A stretch of DNA of 32,000 nt from contig CP001817.1 of NCBI GenBank assembly GCA_000217635.1, positions 150,001 through 182,000 on the forward strand. Reading direction: 5' to 3'. Numbering within the stretch: position 1 is the first letter of the stretch; the number at the start of each line of letters is the position of its first letter. Origin of the DNA: Candidatus Saccharimonadota bacterium. Its GTDB lineage: Bacteria; Pseudomonadota; Gammaproteobacteria; Enterobacterales; Enterobacteriaceae. Shown here piece by piece: positions 4,095 to 32,000 of this stretch. The translations under genes and the position numbers were made by a program. Below the pieces are notes generated by a model. The model had not been told where the DNA came from and ran no database searches. It was given only the letters and a program-made list of their open reading frames with translations.

Positions 4095-4753
4095 AATTTT
4101 TTTTATTTCTCATTTAGTATCAATATTCATGTTTAATTTTTTAAGAAATTATATGTTCTATACCATTAATAATTTATGAGTTTTAATAATAGAATTTTTT
4201 ATTATATAAAAATCTGCAATAATAAAAAATTATTTTTTTTATTAAATAAAAGTTTATTGTATTTATTATAATATCTTATTTTTAAATTATTAAAAATTTA
4301 GATAAAAATATGATTTTTTTTATAAAAACGGATAAATTGTAGCATATTTTCTAAATTTTTTCTTTTTTTTAAATACATTTGTTAATATTAGTAAATAATA
4401 AGTATTTTAATTAAAAAAATAATTTAAATATAAAATCTTTATTTTTTTAATTTTAATAAAATTTATATTGATATGAAATAGTTTTTAATTACTTAATATA
4501 ATAATGTCAATATAATCTTTAATTTTTATAAAAATAAAATAATATTTAGTATTGTAATAATTAAATTTATTATTAAATTTAACAACATATATAAGTATAA
4601 ATGAAAAATTTAACTTTATTTTAGGTTGTGATTTTTTTGAATAAGAAGTTTTATAATAAGTACGATATATTGAGATATATAATATATTTTTTGAATAATT
4701 ATTCAATATAGTACTATGTATTGAAGAGTGTATATTTTATGTATATTCTGTTT

Positions 4754-5936
4754 TTACATAGTAAAATATTTATGATACCAAAAACGAACAATTTTTTTAG
4801 ATTCTTGGATTTTTTCAATATTAACACGTAAAGAGAATAATTCTAATGCTTGTAAAAAATTTATATTTTTATGATGCTTTTTGTATTACAATGATACTGT
4901 TTTTCTATTTCTTTTTGTAGTTTCCATATTTTAGAGATAGTAATTAATATATTTTTGGGTATTCCTATGGATATAGCAGATGATTTAAGTATTTTTCGGA
5001 CAGATATAGAATATGCATTTGAAAATCCCATTATTTTTTTTTAGTTAATTTTTTTATTTTATCTAATAATGGATACCATAGTATGGAAGCAAATAAAAAA
5101 GATGCGTGGCATATTTTTTTGTTTTTATATTTTTATCAGTTTTTTTTAAAGCTTTTTTTATAATATATTTAAAAAATATTTTGTTTTTTTATTTAAAATT
5201 TTAAATAAATAAGGTAATAATGGTTTTATTAAAGAATATTTTTTTAATTTTTTTATATGTTAAATAACCAAATCCACAACAAAATAGTTTAATAGACTCG
5301 TTAAATAAACGTGCAGATGGAACATAATGTAATAGATTAGCTAATCTTGATATAGGTTCTGATGTTTTTTTAGCAATGTTCATATTTAATTGTACTGAAA
5401 AACGAATAACGCGTAACATACGCACAGGGTCTTCTCGATATCTTGTTTCTGCATCGCCAATTAAACAAATAATTTTTCTTTTAATATCATTTACACCTCC
5501 TACATAATCGCGAATTCCAAAATCTTTTATATTGTAATATAAAGCATTAATTGTAAGATCTCGTCGATATGCATCTTCTTCAATTTTTCCAAATGTATTA
5601 TCTTGTAATAATATTCCGTTTATTATTTTTTTTTGTTTTGTACGAAAAGTAGATACTTCAATAATTTCTGCTCGAAATATTAAATGAGCAATGATAAAGC
5701 GGCGTCCAATTAATCTACAGTTTTTAAAAAATCTTTTAATATCATCAGGCGTAGCGTTAGTTGCAATATCAAAGTCTTTTGGGTTTTTTTCCTAATATTA
5801 GATCTCTTACGCTTCCGCCAACTAGATATGCTTCATAACCTAATTTATTTAACCTATATATTACTTTCATAGAATTTTTACTAATTTTTATGGGAGATAT
5901 TATAGTTTTTTTTATAATTAGAGTCATATTTTTCAT
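4754..5936 (-). pseudogene. pcnB: poly(A) polymerase I remnant with multiple frameshifts and two in-frame stops
   Basis: Hand translation in four frame segments is collinear with E. coli PcnB.
- Segment 1 from ATG 5936: [53 protein letters not shown], then out of frame (TGA 5769-5771).
- Segment 2: [27 protein letters not shown]...[26 protein letters not shown]...[10 protein letters not shown], with in-frame TAA at 5201-5203 and 5189-5191.
- Segment 3: HASFLFASILWYPLLDKIKK...IGIPKNILITISKIWKLQ.
- Segment 4: HHKNINFLQALELFSLRVNIEKIQ..., stop at 4754-4756.
It lies downstream of dksA as in E. coli (dksA-gluQ-pcnB). Confidence 0.85.
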
Positions 5937-5953
5937 ATCTGTTCTATGATTAC

Positions 5954-5992
5954 ATAGTCTTATTTTTAAATTTTAATGAAAAATAAGACTAT
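5954..5992. repeat. 14-bp perfect inverted repeat (hairpin, 11-nt loop) between dksA and the pcnB remnant
   Basis: atagtcttattttt (5954-5967) pairs base for base with aaaaataagactat (5979-5992). It includes the only G/C in the neighbourhood. There is no adjacent U-run on either strand. Confidence 0.5.
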
Positions 5993-6214
5993 TAAGGAGT
6001 TATGATCATATCTTTATAATTTTAAATTTATATGATATAACATGCATATTATATTTTTTTGATATAACAAATATTTTATATACAATATATATGTATATAA
6101 ATTATAGTGATTTATATCAATGATAACTTTTTTATTTAAATAAATTTTTATATAATTTTATTATATTTATTTTTTTAATTTTTATATTTAATTTAAAAAT
6201 TAAATTTTATATCT

Positions 6215-7991: not shown

Positions 7992-10587
7992 ATGTTTAAA
8001 AAAATTATTGATAAATTTTTTTTAAATTATAGTAGTCGTATTTTAAAAAAAAATAAATTATTTTGTAAAAAAAATTAATTATTTAGAAAAAGATTTGGTT
8101 AGTTTATCGGATGCAGAATTAAAAAAAAAAACAATAATATTTAAAAATCGATTAAAAAAAGGAGAAACTTTAGAACAATTATTACCAGAAGCATTTGCTG
8201 TAGTACGAGAAGCTAGTAAACGGGTTTTTGGGATGCGTCATTTTGATGTTCAATTGTTAGGAGGTATCGTATTACATCAAAACTCGATTGCAGAGATGCG
8301 TACAGGAGAAGGTAAAACTTTAACTGCAACTTTACCGGTATATTTAAATGCGTTAGAAGGAAAAGGTGTACATGTTGTTACAATGAATGATTATTTAGCT
8401 AAAAGAGATGGTAATAAAAATCGTATTTTATTTAATTTTTTAGGATTAACTGTTGGTATAAATATAAGTAAGATGTCTAAAGCAGAAAAAAGAAAAGCTT
8501 ATTCTTCTGATATTACATATGGAACTAATCATGAATATGGTTTTGATTATTTACGCGATAATATGGTTTTTTGTAGCTCTAAAAAGGTTCAAAGAGAATT
8601 ATACTATGCATTAGTTGATGAAGTGGATTCAATTTTAATAGATGAAGCCCGCACTCCATTAATTATTTCTGGTCCTGTAGATCATAGTAATAGTATATAT
8701 ATTCATATTAATAAATTAGTACGTAAATTAACTTTACAAATTAAAGATCGTGATAAAAAAAAATATATACCAGGAGACTTTTTTATCGATCGAAAAGCGC
8801 GTCAGGTATATTTAACTGAAAAAGGTATGGATACTATAGAGAAATTATTAGTTTCATATAACTTCTTAACTTCTCAGGAATCATTATACTCACCTAAAAA
8901 TATTGTATTTATTCATCATATTTTGTTAGCACTTAAAGCACATTATATATTTTTTAATAATATTGATTATATTATAAAAATAAAAAATATTATGATTGTT
9001 GATGAACATACAGGAAGAATTATGCCTGGTCGTCGTTGGTCAGAGGGTTTACATCAGGCTATTGAAGCAAAAGAGCATGTTTTAATTCAACAAGAAAACC
9101 AGACTTTAGCTTCTATTACACTGCAAAATTACTTTCGTTTATATAAAAAATTATCCGGTATGACCGGGACTGCTATCACCGAAGAATTTGAATTTCGTTC
9201 GATATATAATTTAGAAACTGTGGTTATTCCTACAAATAAACCGATGATTCGTAATGATATGTCGGATGTAATATATCTTTCTTGTACAGAAAAATATAAG
9301 GCAATTGTTGCTGCAATTAAAGATTGTGTTTTGCGTAAACAACCGGTTTTAATAGGTACTGTTTCAATTGAAAAATCTGAATTATTATCTTCTTTTTTAA
9401 AAAAAAATTTTATTAAACATAATATTTTAAATGCAAAATTTCATGCCCAAGAAGCAGATATTATTGCGCAAGCTGGTCAATTAGGCGCTGTAACTATTGC
9501 AACTAATATGGCGGGAAGAGGAACAGATATTGTTTTGGGAGGAAATTTTGATTCTTCTTATATACATGAAAAAAATAATATTAATATAAAAAAAAGGAAT
9601 TTTTTAAAAAAACGCTGGAAAAAAAATAATGCATTGGTGATTCGTAGTGGTGGTTTACATATTATAGGTACTGAAAGGCATGAATCACGTCGTATTGATA
9701 ATCAGTTAAGAGGTAGAGCAGGAAGGCAAGGTGATCCTGGTTCTTCGCGTTTTTATTTATCTTTGGAAGATCCGTTACTTCAATTATTTTTATCAGATAA
9801 AATGATTTATTTTATGAAATTATTTGGTATTAAAAAGGAAGAATCAATTGAACATCCGTGGATTAATACAGCAATAGAGAATGCGCAAAAAAAAGTAGAA
9901 AACCAAAATTTTGATGTTCGTAAAAGTTTGTTAGAATATGATAATATTATTAATGAGCAACGAAAGGTTATTTATCATGAACGAAATAAAATTATTGATT
10001 CTAGCAATTTGAGTTCGTATATTCTTGTTATTTTCTCTAATCAAATAAAAAATTTTTTAAAAAAAAATATAATTCGAAATGATTTAGATTTTAATATTTT
10101 AAAAAAATTTAAAAATTTGTTTTTTTTAGTTTATCTCGTAAAAAAATTTTTGCAAAATAAATTATTATTCTCAAATAATATTAATCATATTAATAATTAT
10201 ATTGTAAAAATTATCCAAAAAGATTATATACAACATACTTCTCAGATATCTATTAAATACAGCATGATAATTGAAAAATATGTTATATTACAAATATTTG
10301 ATCAATTTTGGAGGGATCATTTAAATTCTCTTGATTTTTTAAGGAAAAATATTTATCTTCGTAGTTATGCTCAAAAAGATCCTACACAAGAATATAAAAG
10401 AGAATCTTTTAGTATGTTTGCTTCAATGTTAGAATCTATTAAAAAATTTATAATAAAAAGTTTATTAAATATTTTTTATAAAAATTTTGAAACACATAAA
10501 TATATTTTAATAAAATTTATTGATTCTAATGATTTTAAATCTTTACGTTATTTTATTACTAAACTTTGTGAAACTATTATAATATAA
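7992..10587 (+). CDS. secA: preprotein translocase ATPase SecA, interrupted near the 5' end by a 1-nt frameshift (uninterrupted ORF 8095..10587)
   Basis: The 830-aa ORF matches E. coli SecA from residue ~36 ([10 protein letters not shown]...[27 protein letters not shown]...[14 protein letters not shown]...[19 protein letters not shown]...[10 protein letters not shown]...[30 protein letters not shown]). The conserved N-terminus [20 protein letters not shown] (E. coli [20 protein letters not shown]) is encoded from ATG 7992 in a different frame that stops at TAA 8076-8078. Confidence 0.88.
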
Positions 10588-17695: not shown

Positions 17696-18852
17696 TTAAT
17701 TGATTTTTTTACGTAAAAAAGCGGGAATATCTAAAAAATTTTTTCGTTTTGATTATTGGGTGTTATATTTTTCTCTTTCATTTTATTCTCTGAATAAGTA
17801 TTATTCGTATCGTTTTGATTTAAAGATAGTTTATTTTGATATCCAAGTAACATATCTTTAGATGATCGGTTATTCATGAGCATTATATCAGAGTGTTTAT
17901 CGCCTCCTATCCCGGTAGCTACCACTGTAACTCTTAAGGATTCTTCCATCTTAGGATCTAATGAAGTTCCTATAACTACTGTTGCATTATCTGATGAAAA
18001 TGCTCGAATTGTATTTCCTACTGTTTCAAATTCATCTAAACGTAAATCAAAACCGGCTGTAATATTCACTAATACTCCTTTTGTTCCAGATAAATCAATA
18101 TCCTCTAATAATGGACTGGAAATAGCAATTTCAGAAGCTTCTTCTGCTCTATTTTCACCAGAAGCAGACCCGGTTCCCATCATAGCATATCCCATTTCTG
18201 ACATAACGGTGCGCACGTCTGCAAAATCAACATTCATTAAACCTGGTCGAGTAATTAACTCTGCAATTCCTTGAACCGCTCCTTTTAAAATATCATTAGC
18301 TGCTTTAAACGCATCTAATAAAGATATTCCTCGTGATAAAACTTTTAACAATTTATCGTTAGGTATAGTAATTAATGAATCTACAGATTTTGATAATTCT
18401 TGTAAACCTTGTTCTGCATATATCATTCTTTTTTTTCCTTCAAAACTGAAAGGTTTTGTTACAACAGCAACCGTTAATATACCTAAATCCCTTGCTATTT
18501 TAGCAATTATAGGAGTTGCTCCTGTCCCAGTTCCTCCGCCCATACCTGCCGCTATAAAAATCATATCAGCACCTTCAAGGGCTGATTTCAGTCTTTCTGT
18601 ATCTTCTTCTGCAGCCGTTCTTCCTACTTCTGGATTTGCTCCAGCACCTAATCCTTTAGTAATATTATTTCCTATTTGTATAGTTTGTCCTACATCTATT
18701 TTACGCAAAGCTTGTGCGTCTGTATTAATTGCAAAAAATTCTACTCCCTCTATTTTTTCGCGAATCATATGTTCTACAGCATTACTTCCCCCACCACCTA
18801 TACCTATTACTTTAATAATCGCATCATTTTCTAAATTAACTGGTTCAAACAT
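17696..18852 (-). CDS. ftsZ: cell division GTPase FtsZ; annotated ORF 17731..18852 stops just before the conserved C-terminal peptide, which continues in the -1 frame to 17696
   Basis: 373-aa ORF with tubulin signature [15 protein letters not shown] start region and NVDFADV. Its AAGGA Shine-Dalgarno lies upstream of ATG 18852. The -1 frame after the A6T6 run (17733-17744) encodes [13 protein letters not shown] then a stop (TAA 17696-17698). E. coli FtsZ ends [14 protein letters not shown]. Confidence 0.9.
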
Positions 18853-18910: not shown

Positions 18911-20150
18911 TTAAAATTCTTTTTTTAACCAATTGTATATTTGTCTAATCCAATTATGTAATATTCCTATTTTCTTTGGAATGATTTTTTTTATTTTTTT
19001 TCCATATTGTAATAATCCAATAATTGTTGAGTATTCTGGTTGTGTAATATTTTCTGGAAGATCTGGTAGATTTGGTTTTTTAAGGATTACATTGGTTTGA
19101 AATATTTTTGTTGCATATAGTGGTAATGATTTGATTTGCGATGCTCCACCCGTTAAAACAATTCCCATTAACAATTTATTTTTATTTTTTATTTCTAAAT
19201 TGAATTCACATTTTAATAGTTCATGATTAACTAATTGTAATAATTCAGAATATCTTGATTCAATAACTTCTACTAATTTTGCATGTTGTAAATTTTTTAT
19301 TTTTTCGCCATTTTTTTTAAAGATATCTATATTATTTTTGATATTACGTAAATCACTAATAACTGATCCGTATTTTTTCTTTATAAATTCAGCATCATAA
19401 TATGATAAAGAAAAAGCATAAGCGATATCTTTAGTAACTATATCGCCTCCATAAGGAATAACAGCACTATGCCGTAATGATCCTTGTGTATAAATACTGA
19501 TATTAATTATTTCTCCGCCGATATCTACTAAGCAAACCCCTAATTTTTCTTCTTCTGTTAAAATTGCTTCACTTGCAGCTAATCCAGAAAAAATAATTTT
19601 TGATACTTTTACCCCGCATTTTTCAATTGCTTTAGTTATATTTTTTTCAAGACTATAACAAGAAGTTATTAAATGTACATTAGCTTGCATACGTACACCG
19701 GATAGTCCTAATGGATTTTTTATATTTGATTGCTGGTCAATTGAAAATTCTTGCGGAATAATATGTGTTATGAATCGGTCATTCCTTATTTTTATTGATT
19801 GCGCAGTTTTAATAGCATTTTTAATATCGTCACGAGTAACTTCATCTTGTTTAATTGGAACTACGCCAATTTCATTTAAACATTCTATATCTTTATGTGA
19901 AATTGATACATATACTGATGTAATCTTATATTTTGCAACTTTTTCAGCTTCATAAATAGATTTTTTAATACATGAGATTAATAATTCTAAATTATTGATA
20001 TGACCATTTTCTATCCCATACGATTGATTTTGACTAAATCCAATAATTTCTATATTTTGATTATTTAGAATAGCTCCAATTAATACTATAATTTTTTTTT
20101 GACCCTATTTCCAAACCAACTACTATATTTTTATTATTTGAAATACTCAT
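18911..20150 (-). CDS. ftsA: cell division protein FtsA, interrupted by a 1-nt frameshift in an A9 tract at codon ~19
   Basis: ATG at 20150 gives MSISNNKNIVVGLEIGSKK (E. coli ...RKLVVGLEIGTAK). After the tract (T9 on + strand, 20092-20100) the protein continues in the +1 frame: IIVLIGAILNNQNIEIIGFSQ...NPLGLSGVRMQANVHLITS...LVDIGGE...VLTGGASQI...NWLKKEF. This is collinear with E. coli FtsA to the C-terminal amphipathic helix. The ORF track only shows 18911..19690, from an internal Met. Confidence 0.88.
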
Positions 20151-21548
20151 GTTTAACCTGTATTTATGGTTATTCTATTTTTTTATGATTATTTAAGGAG
20201 ATCCTTATTATATAGGATTTTTTGATTTATAATGTAATCTAGATTTTCTATTAAATTATTATGTTTATTAATCATATTATTTGATGTGTTTTATAATATA
20301 AAAAAATAGGTATTGTAATTAATAAAAATAATTTTGTAAGTACATAAAATATGTATTTATTTTTTTTATTGCTCTATTGTAGAGATTGATTCTTTATTTT
20401 AATATAAAAATTTTAAATAAAATTATAGATATTTTTTTTAAATCGATTTATTGTTATATAATTTAGTATTATTATATGCATAATTAAGTATTTATTATGA
20501 TAAATAAAATTTATTATCAGGATAGATTTTTATTTCTTATGTTTGAAAACATTAAATTCTTATATATTTTATAGATATTTAATAGATAAAATATAAAAAA
20601 AATTAATTTTTAAAAGATATCAAACATTAATAAAAAGTAAATTAGGATATATTTTGATTTTTAAAAAATATGTTAAAAAAATTTTTTATTTAATAATATT
20701 AAATATATTATATAAATAATGAACTGGATATAATATTAACTATGGTTTTATTTTTTATTTGTTCTTATATAGAATTAAATATATTTTTAATTTGAAAAAT
20801 TACGATTTTTAATAAAAAAAATTTTAAATTTGATTAATTATTTATAATTTATAGTTGCAATAATAATAAATTATTTTATATGACTTTATAATGTTATATC
20901 TCTATTTGAGATAATATGATAATAATGAATTATTTATTTTTTAGATATTTTTATTTGTAAAAGAGTATAAGTGGTTTTATAGTTTTATTATTAAAGATAA
21001 TGCATCACTTTTTTTCTTTTTACTTTTATTTATTAACTGCAACACTTATTATTAATAAGTATAGCTAATAATATTAAATTATTATACATGAATAATGTAA
21101 AAGGTTTTAATTCAATTGTATAAAATTTTAAAAATGATTTTTTTTTGTTTAAATTTTTTTTTAGAATTTTATAACATTAAAAAAGATATTATTTATTTTA
21201 ATAAATATTAAATTTAATAACTTTTAATATTAAAAATATAATTGTAAAAATATATGTTGTATTATTATTAAATAATCAATATTGTTTTTTAAAAAAGATA
21301 CATGCTATATCTTATATAATATAATGTAATATTTTATATGTAAAAAAATATTAAGTTTTAAAATAAAAATTTTAAAAAATTTTTTATTACACCAATATAG
21401 ATGTTTATTAATTTTATTAATTTTAAATTATTATATATATATTTTTAAATGATAAAAATTTAATGTCATTTAAAGTATTAGAAAATTTTTTATTTTTATT
21501 TATATAATATTATTTTTAATATGTATTATATTAATAAAATATATAGAA
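20151..21548. other. 1.4-kb non-coding spacer where the ftsL-ftsI-murE-murF-mraY-murD-ftsW-murG-murC-ddlB-ftsQ block sits in E. coli
   Basis: It is flanked by ftsA (start 20150) and rsmH (stop 21549) on the same strand. There is no ORF in the track, G/C is almost absent, and I found no recognisable remnant peptide in any frame. Confidence 0.7.
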
Positions 21549-23107: not shown

Positions 23108-24822
23108 TTAATTTCTTAATAACATTTCATTCATCCCGCCATTTTTTATTTGCATAGGATAAATATGTTCAGTTGGATCAATATGTATATCTAAAAATAC
23201 TAAAGATCCATGATTAACTATGTTAATCGCATGTAATAATTTTTTTTAATGTCAGAAGGTTTATTAATTATTAAGCCAATATGTCCATATGATTCTACTA
23301 ATTTTACAAAATTTGGTAATGATTTCATATATGAATGTGAATGTCGTCCAGAATATATCATATCTTGCCACTGTTTCACCATACCTAAAGATTGATTATT
23401 TAAATTGATTATTAAAATAGCTATTTTATATTGTTTTGCAGTAGATAGTTCTTGGATATTCATTTGAATACTTCCATCACCAGTAATGCATATTACTAAT
23501 TCGTTTGGAAAAGCTAATTTTACACCGAGAGCAGCTGGAAGTCCAAAACCCATAGTTCCTAATCCACCTGAATTAATCCAATGACGCGGTTTTTTAAAAT
23601 TATAATATAATGCAGTAAACATTTGATGCTGTCCAACATCTGAAGTAATATATGCATTTCCTTGAGTTAAAGAAGATAACTCTTTTATTACACCTTGTGG
23701 TTTAATAAAATTTTGAGAATTTTGATATTGAAGACATTGTATTTGTTTCCATTGATCAATTAGCTTCCACCATGCACATAAATAATTTTTTTCTCTTATA
23801 TTATTTTTTTTGTTTAAAAAATATAAGATTTCTTTTAAAATAATTTTAGCATCACCAACAATAGGAATATGCGCTGTAATTGTTTTAGAAATAGATGTAG
23901 GATCTATATCAATATGTATTATTTTAGCGGTTGGACAATACTTTTTAATGTTATTTGTTGTACGATCATCAAAACGTACCCCGATAGCTAAAATAACGTC
24001 GGAATAATGTATTGCCATATTAGCTTCATAGGTACCATGCATACCTAACATGGATAAGTTTTGTGGATGATCTCCGGGAAATGCGCCTAATGACATTAAA
24101 GATAAAACAACAGGAATATTTAATTTTGTTGCCAATTGATATAATTCTGAATGACTATTTGAATTAATGATTCCGCCTCCAGCATAAATAATCGGTTTTT
24201 TTGCTTTTATAAAAATTTTTATTGCTTTTTTAATTTGACCTATATGTCCATTTTTAATGGGATTATATGATCGAATATTGATTGATTCTGGCCATATATA
24301 ATTTTTTTTTATATTTTGATCTAATATATTTTTAGGTAAATCTATTACTACTGGTCCTGGTCGACCGCTTGTAGCTAATAAAAAAGATTTTTTAAAAATT
24401 TCTGGAATTTCTTCAGTTTTTTGTACTAAGAAACTATGCTTAACAATAGGGCGAGAAATCCCAATCATATCACATTCTTGAAATGCATCATAACCCATTA
24501 GTTCTGAAGAAACTTGACCTGAAATTATTAATAAAGGAATAGAATCCATATAAGCTGTTGCAATTCCAGTAATAGAATTGGTAGCTCCAGGCCCTGAAGT
24601 TACTAATACTACTCCAATTTTTCCAGTTGCCCGTGCATAACCATCAGCCATATGTGCGGCACCTTGTTCGTGTCTTACTAAAATGTGCTTTATTTTTTTT
24701 CCGATTGTTTTAAATGCATCATATATATCTAATACAGCGCCACCAGGGTATCCAAATATAATTTTAATATTTAAATCAATTAGTGATTGAATGACCATTT
24801 CAGCGCCTGATAATAACTTCAT
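23108..24822 (-). CDS. ilvI: acetolactate synthase III large subunit, with a 1-nt frameshift in an A8 tract ~45 codons before the ancestral stop
   Basis: The true start is ATG 24822 ([28 protein letters not shown] vs E. coli [28 protein letters not shown]), with AAGGA upstream. The 40-codon extension in the ORF track is low-complexity. ThDP motif [14 protein letters not shown]...[12 protein letters not shown] is present. The zero frame stops at 23218-23220. The -1 frame gives [43 protein letters not shown] then a stop (TAA 23108-23110), collinear with the E. coli C-terminus. Confidence 0.9.
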
Positions 24823-28982: not shown

Positions 28983-29739
28983 TTCTTCATTAATTGTTTA
29001 ATAATTTGAAGTGATTTATTAAAGTTGGTTTTATTTTAATTTATAGTATTTAAGGTAGTTTTATAAAAATAAGTATTACTATTAATTTTAAAAAATTTAA
29101 TTGATTAATAAAATATAATTTTTAATATATTAAATAAATTAATTATTTTATGTAATATTTTTAAATATCAATATATTTATTTGATTATTATAATAATTTC
29201 TAAGAGTTATAAAAATTAAAATAGAATATATACATACTTTTAATTATTAATTGAATATTTATAAATAATGATTTTTTTTTCTCATTTTTTAAATGGTATT
29301 TTAATAGATCAAAAATAATAGATTTTATTGAAAAGATTAATTGATGATTATATTTATATAATTTTTATTATATTAGTTGTTTACTATTCATAATTAATAA
29401 TATGATTTTTATATATTTAATATTAAAATGGGTTTTTATAATGATTTATAATATTTTTATGAAAATTACTTAGTTTTATTCTTATTGTAAGAAATATTAT
29501 TTTATTGATTAATATAAAATATTAATAAAAAATATACTTTTAAAGAACATAATATATAAGTATATTAAAGTGATTAAATAAATGTTTTTAATATCTTTAA
29601 GTAATTTTTTTTCTAAATATATTAATGTAATATCTGTTATTATTGGATTATATTTAATATATAAAAAAAATAAAAATTTTTTTTAAGTTCTTATTAATTT
29701 TATAATTAATTCTAATACTTATATAAGGATTTCTAAAAA
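28983..29739. other. 757-bp non-coding spacer occupying the position (and roughly the length) of pyrH
   Basis: In E. coli the order is rpsB-tsf-pyrH-frr and pyrH is ~0.73 kb. Here tsf and frr are separated by 757 nt with no ORF, almost no G/C and no recognisable UMP-kinase motif in any frame. Confidence 0.6.
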
Positions 29740-30296
29740 ATGATTAATTCATTAGTAGAATATGTTCGTGTTTCCATGAATAAATGTGTTATAGTTTTTC
29801 AAGATGATTTAAACAATATACGTGCTAATCATGTTACGCCATCATTATTAAAAAATATTTATATTGAATATTTTGGTGTTAAGACTTCGTTGTTCCAATT
29901 ATCTAATATTGTTGTAGAAGACAATAATACATTAAAAATAACATTATTTGACGAATCTATAAAAAATACAGTGGAAAAAGCTATTATAAATTCAAATTTA
30001 GGTTTTAATCCAATTTCGATAGATTCTATTATTCGTATTCCTGTTCCTATTTTATCTGAGGATAGAAGAAGAGAATTAGTAAAAATGATTAAAAAAGATT
30101 CTGAACATACCCGGGTTACAATAAGAAATATTAGGCGAGATGCGCATGAAAAGTTAAAAATTTTTTTAAAAAATAAAAAATAACACAAGATTTAATGCGA
30201 GATTATAAAAAAGAAATTCAAGATTGTACCGATATGTTTATTAAAAAAATTAATAAAATAGTTGCTCTCAAAGAAAATGAGTTAATGAATGTTTAA
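29740..30296 (+). CDS. frr: ribosome recycling factor, with a 1-nt frameshift in an A6 tract (uninterrupted ORF 29740..30183)
   Basis: The 147-aa ORF is collinear with E. coli RRF residues 1-147 ([29 protein letters not shown]...[18 protein letters not shown]...[12 protein letters not shown]). The -1 frame from 30180 gives [38 protein letters not shown] then a stop (TAA 30294-30296), collinear with E. coli [38 protein letters not shown]. Confidence 0.9.
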
Positions 30297-30709: not shown

Positions 30710-32000
30710 ATGTTTCATAAAACTCTTGTTTTTTTAGGGATATTATTTTTTTCTACTGTTATTTTTCCTGTGCAATCGCGTCCTATTACACGTATTGTTT
30801 TTCATGGTTTAAATCATGCAGCTAATTTAAGTATTATAAAAAAAATTATGCTTGATCAACATAAACAGAAATCTTTACAAGATATAAATAATATTATAAA
30901 GACTTTATATAATACAAATTATTTTATTAATGTGCGTGTTAAAAAAATAAAAGAAACATTTTTTTTTTATGTGACAGAGTTTCCGAAAATAAAAAAAATA
31001 TTTTTTTCCGGGAACAATATACTTTCAGAAAGTTTTTTAAATAATAGTTTACATCGATTTGGTATTTTTGAAGATTATCCTTTTAATCTTAAAAAATACA
31101 ACGATTTTTTAAGTTTTTTAAAAGAATGCTATTATAATCGAGGTATTTTTGGTATTAAAATTAAACCTTTGTATACAAAATCTTTAAATAATAATGTTTC
31201 CATTAATATTAATGTTTATGAAAATGCCTTTTTTAACGTATCTGATATAAAAATTGTAGGTAATAAACAATACCCTAATGCTTTTATTTTAAAAAAATTT
31301 TTTCAATTTAATCGATATTTCTTTTTTCCTCGTTTTTTACAGAAACAGTATACCTTTTCTCAATTTAAAGAGCATTTATTAGAGTTAAAAAATTTTTATA
31401 AAAATAATGGTTACTTAAAAATTAAGATTAATCAACTTAAGGTTTTTGAAAATCAAGATCACAATAGCGTTTCTATCGTTATTGAATTATGTGAAGGTGA
31501 AAAATATACGTTTAAAAAAATTGTAACTCATCAGGTTAAATCAGAATATTTTAATAAAAATATAGATATAAAACGTGTTTTTATTCCTGCAGTTAATTTT
31601 CAAGAGTCTGATGTTTTATTTTTAAAGAAAAATAAAAAATTATATGCACATGTTGGGTTTTCTAATGTAAAAGTGACAATACGTCATGATATTAATGAAA
31701 TCGATAAATCTGTTATTATATATATTTTAATTGAACCTAAAGAACAGTTTTTTATAAATAAAATTTATTTTGTTGGGAATACAAAATCAAAATATTCATT
31801 TTTAAAAAAAATTATTAAAACATCAAAACACTCCTATTGTGATAAGTATACTATAAAAAAAAATTGTCAGTTATTACAAAATACTGACTTATTTAATACA
31901 GTATATTTTAAGACATATAAAGCAAAAGGTTTACTTAATACAATTAATGTATACTATGTTCTAGAAGATAAAAAAGACAATCAACTTGTATGTTCCGCAG
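30710..32000 (+). CDS. bamA: outer membrane protein assembly factor BamA, N-terminal 430 codons (continues beyond window end)
   Basis: Absent from the ORF track because it is open to the window edge. Hand translation from ATG 30710 has no stops. It shows a signal-peptide-like MFHKTLVFLGILFFSTVIFPVQS followed by POTRA-like repeats (ITRIVFHGLNH..., KIKKIFFSGNN..., VSDIKIVGNKQYPNAFILKKF..., FFINKIYFVGNTKSKYSFLKKII...) collinear with E. coli BamA (IHFEGLQR, ITFSGNK, INIVGNHAF, IRFEGNDTSKDAVLRRE). Contains an in-frame T10 (30959-30968). Confidence 0.85.
   Translation, partial: MFHKTLVFLGILFFSTVIFPVQSRPITRIVFHGLNHAANLSIIKKIMLDQHKQKSLQDINNIIKTLYNTNYFINVRVKKIKETFFFYVTEFPKIKKIFFSGNNILSESFLNNSLHRFGIFEDYPFNLKKYNDFLSFLKECYYNRGIFGIKIKPLYTKSLNNNVSININVYENAFFNVSDIKIVGNKQYPNAFILKKFFQFNRYFFFPRFLQKQYTFSQFKEHLLELKNFYKNNGYLKIKINQLKVFENQDHNSVSIVIELCEGEKYTFKKIVTHQVKSEYFNKNIDIKRVFIPAVNFQESDVLFLKKNKKLYAHVGFSNVKVTIRHDINEIDKSVIIYILIEPKEQFFINKIYFVGNTKSKYSFLKKIIKTSKHSYCDKYTIKKNCQLLQNTDLFNTVYFKTYKAKGLLNTINVYYVLEDKKDNQLVCSA

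What the first reader, a model, noticed from the sequence alone, without database searches (positions are those of the whole stretch)
30157..30296. The last 38 codons of frr (RRF) are in the -1 frame, and the switch is confined to a 4-nt window inside an A6 run followed by TAA
The zero frame reads ...KIFLKNKK and stops at TAA 30181-30183. The -1 frame is closed by TAA 30174-30176 and then reads (K)[38 protein letters not shown] with a stop at 30294-30296. This is collinear with the E. coli RRF C-terminus ([40 protein letters not shown]).

The frame change must therefore happen within 30177-30180. With A7 the junction reads KNKKITQD, against E. coli KDKEISED.

The truncated 147-aa product would lack the last helix of the three-helix bundle, so I infer it would be non-functional. 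The geometry matches ftsZ: a slippery homopolymer, an immediate zero-frame stop and a conserved continuation in the -1 frame (tRNA-Lys on A AAA AAA UAA).
Basis: partly seen in the sequence, partly recalled or inferred. Interest (0 to 1): 0.66.

Follow-up and report, generated by a model that had tools for sequence, protein, structure and literature searches.

The report
One-base homopolymer break in frr
The ribosome recycling factor gene of this aphid symbiont is split by one missing A in a run of A's, and this is most likely a sequencing miscount in an old 454-era genome, not a recoding signal.

Summary
The sequence observation is correct. frr reads 147 codons and stops at TAA 30181-30183. 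The remaining 38 codons lie in the -1 frame. One extra A in the A6 run (30175-30180) gives a 185-aa RRF that aligns without gaps to E. coli RRF.

Five related Cinara Buchnera have an intact 185-aa frr. Four have A7 at this position; one has an interrupted run.

The break is one of five. secA, ftsA, ftsZ and ilvI each carry one +1 or -1 lesion at or next to an A run. Two lesions are insertions and three are deletions. All five genes are intact in two relatives (5/15 versus 0/28 genes, p=0.003).

The displaced tail shows the same purifying selection as the rest of the gene. There is no X XXY YYZ heptamer, no stimulatory RNA structure and no conservation of the shift.

The same laboratory sequenced this aphid's DNA with 454. 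That platform can frameshift 20% or more of the genes in low-G+C genomes.

Best reading: a homopolymer miscall (about 0.75). A real recent deletion rescued by slippage is the main rival. Only reads can decide.

The parts
29725..29729 (+). Shine-Dalgarno-like AAGGA, 10 nt upstream of the frr ATG
   Evidence: Read directly. Consistent with a normally expressed gene; inference only.
29740..30183 (+). frr 5' part in the zero frame: 147 codons plus the TAA stop at 30181-30183
   Evidence: Matches Pfam RRF positions 1-127 of 164. 78% identical to the closest relative.
30175..30180 (+). A6 run containing the frame break. Four of five relatives have A7 here; one has an interrupted run.
   Evidence: Adding one A gives a 185-aa RRF.
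30174..30176 (+). TAA that closes the -1 frame just upstream of the break
30177..30296 (+). frr 3' part in the -1 frame: K plus 38 codons (ITQDLMR...ELMNV) and the TAA stop at 30294-30296. It encodes the whole third helix of the bundle.
   Evidence: Helix 150-183 in the model has pLDDT 91-97. dN/dS is 0.16 against the closest relative.
8045..8053 (+). Parallel lesion in secA: A9 where the relative has A8, so one extra A. The first 20 codons are out of frame with the rest.
   Evidence: Deleting one A gives 864 aa, against 867 in the C. confinis strain.
20092..20100 (-). Parallel lesion in ftsA: A9 on the coding strand where A8 is needed, so one extra A after codon 17
   Evidence: Repair gives 412 aa, against 415-416 in relatives.
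17733..17744 (-). Parallel lesion in ftsZ: A6T6 where the closest relative has A7T6, so one A is missing. The TAG stop follows at once and the C-terminal peptide [14 protein letters not shown] is in the -1 frame.
   Evidence: Repair gives 385 aa. The FtsZ proteins of all the other Buchnera listed, including at least ten Cinara strains, are 380-390 aa.
23238..23247 (-). Parallel lesion in ilvI: A8T2 where relatives have A8T3 or A7T3, so one base is missing. The last 44 codons are out of frame.
   Evidence: Repair gives 571 aa, against 572.

Best explanation
The frr gene is an ordinary, intact, essential RRF gene. In the deposited sequence, its conserved A7 tract (codons K146-K147-I148) is one A short. 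The most likely cause is a homopolymer length miscall in a 454-pyrosequencing assembly of the Buchnera aphidicola (Cinara tujafilina) genome. The organism then has A7, makes normal 185-aa RRF, and needs no frameshifting.

Shown:
- The lesion is a single missing base in a tract that is A7 and in frame in four of five relatives.
- The tail is still under purifying selection.
- Four other indispensable or important genes in the same 32 kb carry single +1 or -1 lesions at A runs, in both directions, and none is shared with relatives.

Inferred:
- This record was produced from 454 data.
- The lesions are miscounts rather than mutations.
For: 1. Identity of the record. The window's RRF ORF comes from a 444,925-bp contig. 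That is exactly the published size of Buchnera aphidicola (C. tujafilina) NC_015662/CP001817, which has 23% G+C.
2. Sequencing platform. The same laboratory sequenced C. tujafilina bacteriocyte DNA with 454 FLX and Titanium. It concedes elsewhere that 454 homopolymer artefacts cannot be ruled out in its assemblies.
3. Relatives. All five have an intact 185-aa frr. Four have GAT AAA AAA ATT at the site.
4. Density of lesions. Five of 15 comparable genes are broken in the window (secA, ftsA, ftsZ, ilvI, frr), each by one base at or next to an A run of 6-9. The same genes give 0 of 28 in two relatives (Fisher p=0.003). Each is restored to the relatives' length by a one-base repair.
5. Direction. 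The lesions go both ways: two insertions and three deletions. That fits miscounting, not a shared recoding mechanism.
6. Published 454 error rate. [quoted passage not shown] Genomes where such frameshifts are taken as real show only 4-8 affected genes among roughly 600.
7. Annotation statistics. The BCt annotation has the shortest mean CDS of the nine Buchnera compared: 919 bp against 963-982 bp.
8. Selection on the tail. dN/dS is 0.16, against 0.145 for the rest of the gene. There are no further stops or indels.
9. A genuine pseudogene in the window, pcnB, looks different: several frame switches plus in-frame stops.
Against: - No reads or independent assembly of this strain could be found, so the tract length is not directly verified.
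- The original genome paper was not available, so the platform and any Sanger checking of this record are inferred.
- A7 to A6 is a fairly short run for a consensus 454 error at good coverage.
- The ilvI lesion is most simply T3 to T2, next to an A8 run rather than inside a long run.
- Real homopolymer frameshifts in indispensable genes do occur in Buchnera and Blochmannia.
- The tail has slightly more window-specific amino-acid changes than the closest relative's tail (6 versus 2), but this is not significant (p=0.26).
Confidence: 0.75

Rival explanations
1. The deletion is real and recent, either fixed or at high frequency among the many genome copies of the symbiont. Enough full-length RRF is made by error-prone decoding. 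RNA polymerase could add one A in the A6 run, and/or peptidyl-tRNA-Lys could slip -1 from AAA 30178-30180 to AAA 30177-30179 while UAA waits in the A site (a 'shifty stop'). This would be the known endosymbiont 'impaired and rescued' class, not an evolved signal.
For: - The gene is otherwise intact and its tail is under purifying selection.
- Single homopolymer frameshifts in otherwise intact, important genes are reported in Blochmannia. Rescue by transcriptional slippage is reported as experimentally shown in Buchnera and Blochmannia (Tamas 2008, as cited).
- Single-A insertions by Buchnera RNA polymerase have been recorded at A6 runs.
- -1 re-pairing of tRNA-Lys on AAA AAA is perfect, and a stop codon follows.
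Against: - A6 is short. Slippage rises exponentially with run length. Events at runs of about 6 are a small minority in that data set. The overall insertion rate is about 1.3e-5 per nucleotide, and that study saw no reading frame restored.
- The shift is not shared by any relative.
- It would need five important genes in 32 kb to depend on rescue at once, against 0 of 28 in relatives.
- There are no stimulatory elements.
Confidence: 0.15
2. The deletion is real and inactivating. The symbiont makes only a 147-aa RRF without the third bundle helix. It either tolerates this or gets recycling activity from elsewhere.
For: - The deposited annotation carries the 147-aa product as an ordinary protein.
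- Genome erosion through homopolymer indels is the normal route of gene loss in these symbionts.
Against: - Every other Buchnera in the search keeps a 185-aa frr.
- The missing part is one of the three helices of domain I.
- The tail shows no decay: dN/dS 0.16, no stops, no indels.
- From general knowledge, not tested here: frr is essential in E. coli.
Confidence: 0.04
3. This is an evolved, programmed -1 ribosomal frameshift site. It would be shared in design with ftsZ and would set the ratio of truncated to full-length protein.
For: - A slippery lysine run is followed at once by a stop.
- A conserved continuation lies in the -1 frame.
- The same layout occurs in ftsZ.
Against: - The shift is not conserved: all relatives read both sites in frame.
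- There is no X XXY YYZ heptamer, because U precedes the run.
- There is no downstream structure (z=+0.81) and no upstream Shine-Dalgarno-like element.
- Three other broken genes in the window lack this layout, and two need the opposite shift.
Confidence: 0.02

Closest known systems
454 pyrosequencing homopolymer indel errors in assemblies of low-G+C genomes (Luo et al. 2012, PMC3277595)
   Same: One-base length errors in A/T runs. Both over- and under-counts occur. They produce artificial frameshifts in otherwise perfect genes. The published expectation is 20% or more of genes in low-G+C genomes. The window has about 5 of 20 genes broken in a 23% G+C genome.
   Different: The platform of this particular record is inferred from the laboratory's related paper, not read from the record. 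A7 is at the short end of error-prone runs, and one lesion (ilvI) is beside a long run rather than inside it.
Endosymbiont poly(A) frameshifts rescued by transcriptional slippage (Tamas et al. 2008; Wernegreen et al. 2010; as summarised in PMC3017870 and bioRxiv 10.1101/2022.08.28.505559)
   Same: The same genus, and a single indel in an A run of an otherwise intact, indispensable gene.
   Different: The 'long' tracts in that literature are 9 bp or more, up to 12, and some of those frameshifts are conserved among strains or species. Here the tract is A6 and the frameshift is found in this record only.
-1 ribosomal frameshifting on lysine runs: dnaX A AAA AAG, IS-element sites, and 'shifty stops' (Weiss et al. 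1987; Atkins et al. 2016, PMC5009743)
   Same: tRNA-Lys can re-pair perfectly one base back on AAA AAA, and a stop codon occupies the A site. That combination is known to raise slippage (the IS1 A6 example is recalled from memory).
   Different: The base 5' of the run is U, so tandem slippage is mismatched. There is no internal Shine-Dalgarno element, no hairpin, and no phylogenetic conservation.
Ribosome recycling factor (Pfam PF01765; E. coli RRF, PDB 1ek8)
   Same: The repaired product is a standard 185-aa RRF, gaplessly collinear with E. coli and Vibrio RRF.
   Different: As deposited, the gene is split between two frames.

Membership tests
Ribosome recycling factor (PF01765) | Full-length match to the RRF profile and to solved RRF structures | tested here: met
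   The repaired 185-aa protein matches PF01765 positions 1-164 of 164 (E=7.6e-50). It aligns 1-185 to 1is1 and 2-184 to 1ek8 without gaps. The model has a three-helix bundle plus an alpha/beta domain.
Programmed -1 ribosomal frameshift site (dnaX / IS type) | Slippery heptamer X XXY YYZ in the zero frame | tested here: not met
   The site is U AAA AAA (T30174 precedes the A6 run). Only single-tRNA slippage re-pairs perfectly.
Programmed -1 ribosomal frameshift site (dnaX / IS type) | Stimulatory element: an upstream Shine-Dalgarno-like sequence and/or a downstream hairpin or pseudoknot | tested here: not met
   The downstream 80 nt have an MFE of -2.7 kcal/mol and z=+0.81 against shuffles. The 101-nt context gives z=+0.54. 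No GGAGG- or AGGA-like motif lies in the 35 nt upstream.
Programmed -1 ribosomal frameshift site (dnaX / IS type) | The frameshift is conserved in related genomes | tested here: not met
   All five relatives have an in-frame 185-aa frr.
Programmed -1 ribosomal frameshift site (dnaX / IS type) | Both zero-frame and transframe products are made | not testable with these tools
   This needs proteomics or a reporter assay.
Endosymbiont poly(A) frameshift rescued by transcriptional slippage (Tamas 2008 class) | A single +1 or -1 indel inside an A/T homopolymer of an otherwise intact gene | tested here: met
   A6 against A7 in relatives. The rest of the gene is intact and the tail dN/dS is 0.16.
Endosymbiont poly(A) frameshift rescued by transcriptional slippage (Tamas 2008 class) | A tract long enough for frequent RNA polymerase slippage (about 9 or more) | tested here: not met
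   The tract is 6 nt. Slippage rises exponentially with run length, and 9 or more is the 'long' class in the literature.
Endosymbiont poly(A) frameshift rescued by transcriptional slippage (Tamas 2008 class) | The frameshift is maintained across strains or species | tested here: not met
   It is unique to this record among six Cinara Buchnera frr sequences.
Endosymbiont poly(A) frameshift rescued by transcriptional slippage (Tamas 2008 class) | A mixed mRNA pool containing corrected transcripts | not testable with these tools
   This needs cDNA sequencing.
Homopolymer sequencing artefact (454) | The lesion is a one-base length difference in a homopolymer relative to an in-frame expectation | tested here: met
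   All five lesions are repaired by a one-base change at or next to an A run.
Homopolymer sequencing artefact (454) | An excess of such lesions compared with related genomes sequenced otherwise, in both directions, and hitting indispensable genes | tested here: met
   5/15 against 0/28 genes, p=0.003. Two insertions and three deletions. All the other listed Buchnera FtsZ proteins are 380-390 aa, against 373 aa here.
Homopolymer sequencing artefact (454) | The record derives from pyrosequencing reads | tested here: inconclusive
   The same laboratory sequenced C. tujafilina DNA with 454 FLX and Titanium. The genome paper itself could not be read.
Homopolymer sequencing artefact (454) | Independent reads show the in-frame tract length | not testable with these tools
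   No independent assembly or reads of this strain were found.

The most novel reading that the evidence does not exclude
The A6 tract is genuine. An essential translation factor in a Buchnera lineage is then expressed only through -1 slippage of peptidyl-tRNA-Lys on U AAA AAA UAA (a stimulator-free 'shifty stop'), or through RNA polymerase stuttering on only six A's. ftsZ would depend on the same trick. This would mean a symbiont can live with several core genes held at slippage-limited expression.
Probability: 0.08. Interest if true: 0.5.

Novelty: not a real feature. Interest (0 to 1): 0.12.

Why it matters
If it is an artefact, the value is practical. The deposited C. tujafilina Buchnera genome probably carries many homopolymer miscounts. 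These truncate or split core proteins in public databases: a 147-aa RRF, a 373-aa FtsZ, and truncated or split FtsA, SecA and IlvI. They can mislead gene-loss and pseudogene analyses. If it is real, it would extend the known 'impaired and rescued' poly(A) phenomenon of endosymbionts to a much shorter tract and to the ribosome recycling factor. That would be of moderate interest to people working on recoding and genome erosion.

Tried and rejected
1. Independent copy of the strain. None was found. The exact 185-aa repaired protein is not in the 15-billion-protein collection. The 147-aa ORF and the window's RpsB are not on record in the contig index. A 41-nt strain-specific DNA pattern gave no hit in metagenome contigs.
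2. The genome-contig scan with the RRF protein was wasted.
3. The original genome paper (PMC3127723) and the two key slippage papers (PMC2567471, PMC2877537) are not held. Their content is cited only through other papers or from memory.
4. Stimulatory RNA structure was tested and rejected.
5. Relaxed selection on the displaced tail was tested and not found. dN/dS is 0.16 against 0.145. Lineage-specific changes are 6/38 against 13/147 for the window, and 2 against 13 for the relative (p=0.26).
6. Restriction of the breaks to sense-strand A runs was considered as a clue. It is expected by chance: there are 204 A runs against 59 T runs of 6 or more in coding sequence.
7. The 'immediate zero-frame stop' was considered as a signal. 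It occurs in only 2 of 5 broken genes, which is unremarkable in 77% A+T sequence.

Full report
**Observation.**
- An ORF starts at ATG 29740, preceded by an AAGGA at 29725-29729. It runs 147 codons to ...KIFLKNKK and stops at TAA 30181-30183.
- The last two lysine codons are the A6 run 30175-30180. The base before the run is T30174.
- The -1 frame is closed by TAA 30174-30176. It then reads [39 protein letters not shown] and stops at 30294-30296.
- Any frame change must therefore occur within 30177-30180.

Inserting one A gives a 185-aa protein. It aligns residue for residue, without gaps, to Vibrio RRF (1is1, E=1.4e-48) and E. coli RRF (1ek8). It covers all 164 positions of Pfam RRF, while the 147-aa ORF covers only 1-127. 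An AlphaFold2 model (mean pLDDT 87.9) has bundle helices at 2-25, 107-144 and 150-183. The break therefore sits in the loop before the third helix, and the 147-aa product lacks that helix entirely. One detail in the finding is wrong: the site is U AAA AAA UAA, not A AAA AAA UAA.

**Source.** The window's own RRF ORF is recorded from a 444,925-bp contig. [quoted passage not shown] The nearest homologues are all Buchnera from Cinara aphids. The 147-aa product is present in NCBI and UniRef as an ordinary protein. The repaired 185-aa sequence is in no database searched.

**Comparison with relatives.** I retrieved frr from five related Buchnera:
- the complete C. confinis genome LT667503 (identified);
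- three Logan assemblies;
- one ENA assembly.

All five encode a 185-aa RRF. At the site, four read GAT AAA AAA ATT ACx (A7) and one reads GAT AAT AAA ATC. The window reads AAT AAA AAA TAA. So the window has one base fewer in a tract that is conserved and in frame elsewhere. This is not a conserved recoding site.

The displaced tail still looks like coding sequence under constraint.
- Against the closest relative, dN/dS is 0.16 for the 38 tail codons and 0.145 for the first 147.
- The tail has no further stops or indels.
- The excess of window-specific amino-acid changes in the tail is not significant: 6 against 2 in the tail and 13 against 13 upstream, p=0.26.

**Is it a frameshift signal?** The features that define programmed -1 sites are absent.
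- There is no X XXY YYZ heptamer.
- No Shine-Dalgarno-like element lies upstream.
- The downstream 80 nt fold worse than shuffled controls (z=+0.81). The 101-nt context gives z=+0.54.

What remains is that tRNA-Lys could slip back one base on AAA AAA with UAA in the A site. This is the 'shifty stop' situation. It could give some low level of frameshifting, but nothing suggests it was selected.

**The wider pattern.** I compared the window's genes with their orthologues in the C. confinis genome (L015) and the closest Logan contig (L013, L014). This showed that frr is one of five broken genes.

| Gene | Window tract | Relatives | Lesion |
|---|---|---|---|
| secA | A9 at 8045-8053 | A8 | one extra A; the first 20 codons are out of frame |
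| ftsA | A9 at 20092-20100, minus strand | in-frame A7; A8 is needed after the window's synonymous TCA | one extra A after codon 17 |
| ftsZ | A6T6 at 17733-17744, minus strand | A7T6 | one A missing; TAG follows at once and the FtsA-binding tail [14 protein letters not shown] is in the -1 frame |
| ilvI | A8T2 at 23238-23247, minus strand | A8T3 or A7T3 | one base missing; 44 codons out of frame |
| frr | A6 at 30175-30180 | A7 | one A missing |

A one-base repair restores each gene to the relatives' length: 864, 412, 385, 571 and 185 aa. None of the five lesions is present in either relative. That is 5 of 15 comparable genes broken in the window against 0 of 28 in the relatives (Fisher p=0.003). 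The FtsZ proteins of all the other Buchnera listed, including at least ten named Cinara strains, are 380-390 aa, against 373 here.

The lesions go in both directions. Only two of the five have an immediate zero-frame stop, so the 'geometry' shared by frr and ftsZ is not a general design. All five lie on sense-strand A runs. That is expected, because sense A runs of 6 or more outnumber T runs 204 to 59. By contrast pcnB, a dispensable gene, shows several frame switches and in-frame stops. That is what a genuine eroding pseudogene looks like.

**Explanation.** The pattern has five elements:
- single one-base length errors at A runs;
- errors in both directions;
- about a quarter of the genes affected, including core essential ones;
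- genes otherwise perfectly conserved;
- lesions unique to one record.

This is what 454 pyrosequencing assemblies of A+T-rich genomes produce. [quoted passage not shown] The laboratory that produced this genome sequenced C. tujafilina bacteriocyte DNA with 454 FLX and Titanium. It has acknowledged that such artefacts cannot be excluded in its 454-based assemblies. In genomes where homopolymer frameshifts are taken as real, they affect 4-8 genes among roughly 600, in tracts usually of 9 or more. The BCt annotation also has the shortest mean CDS of the nine Buchnera compared (919 bp against 963-982 bp), together with a long mean spacer. That fits many split or truncated gene calls. I therefore put about 0.75 on a homopolymer miscall. 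On that reading the real gene has A7 and is an ordinary frr.

**Rivals.**
- *Real, recent deletion rescued by slippage (about 0.15).* Such cases are documented in this genus. Buchnera RNA polymerase does occasionally add an A at A6 runs. But slippage rises exponentially with run length, and overall insertion rates are about 1e-5 per nucleotide. That study saw no frame restored. Five simultaneous dependencies in 32 kb are also hard to accept.
- *Real, inactivating lesion (about 0.04).* This conflicts with universal retention of full-length frr in Buchnera and with the undecayed tail.
- *Evolved programmed frameshift (about 0.02).* The comparative data contradict it.

**Limits.** I could not find reads or an independent assembly of this strain. 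I could not read the original genome paper. The platform assignment for this record, and the absence of Sanger verification, are therefore inferences. The decisive test is simple: count the tract length in Illumina or Sanger reads from C. tujafilina at the five sites.

**Verdict.** The structural consequence is correctly inferred. The recoding interpretation is not supported. The feature is most likely not biological. At best it is another member of the known endosymbiont homopolymer-frameshift class. Interest is low.

Noticed in passing
window 8045-8053 (secA), 20092-20100 (ftsA), 17733-17744 (ftsZ), 23238-23247 (ilvI): Four more genes each carry a single one-base frame break at or next to an A run. 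Two have an extra base and two have a missing base. All four are intact in two related Buchnera, and each is restored to full length by a one-base repair.
   Followed up: yes
window 4095-6214, minus strand: pcnB (poly(A) polymerase) is present only as pieces spread over all three frames, with in-frame stops. For example, ...[27 protein letters not shown] is in one frame and [16 protein letters not shown]...[16 protein letters not shown] is in another. It looks like a genuinely eroding pseudogene with several lesions, unlike the single-lesion genes. The assignment to pcnB is from memory of the E. coli sequence and was not tested.
   Followed up: partly
window 28983-29739: The 757-bp spacer between tsf and frr has only 10% G+C and no trace of pyrH. 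pyrH sits in this position in a more distant Cinara Buchnera (L004, 241 aa) and is also missing in the C. confinis strain (L001).
   Followed up: partly
L013:10559-11670, compared with window 30710-32000: bamA follows frr in the window (residues 1-431 match in one frame and the gene runs off the window end) and in the C. confinis strain. In the closest relative (Logan SRR21069242) frr is followed after 1.1 kb directly by fabZ, with no detectable bamA. This may be loss of an outer-membrane assembly gene in that lineage.
   Followed up: partly
window 20200-21548: A stretch of about 1.3 kb at roughly 15% G+C lies between ftsA and rsmH and has no ORF. In free-living relatives, the mur/fts cell-wall cluster occupies this position. 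It is presumably the remnant of that deleted cluster.
   Followed up: no
window 30181-30183: The Ile codon after the lysines is ATA in the window, against ATT or ATC in all five relatives. This synonymous change is what creates the immediate TAA in the shifted reading. It is probably coincidence.
   Followed up: partly
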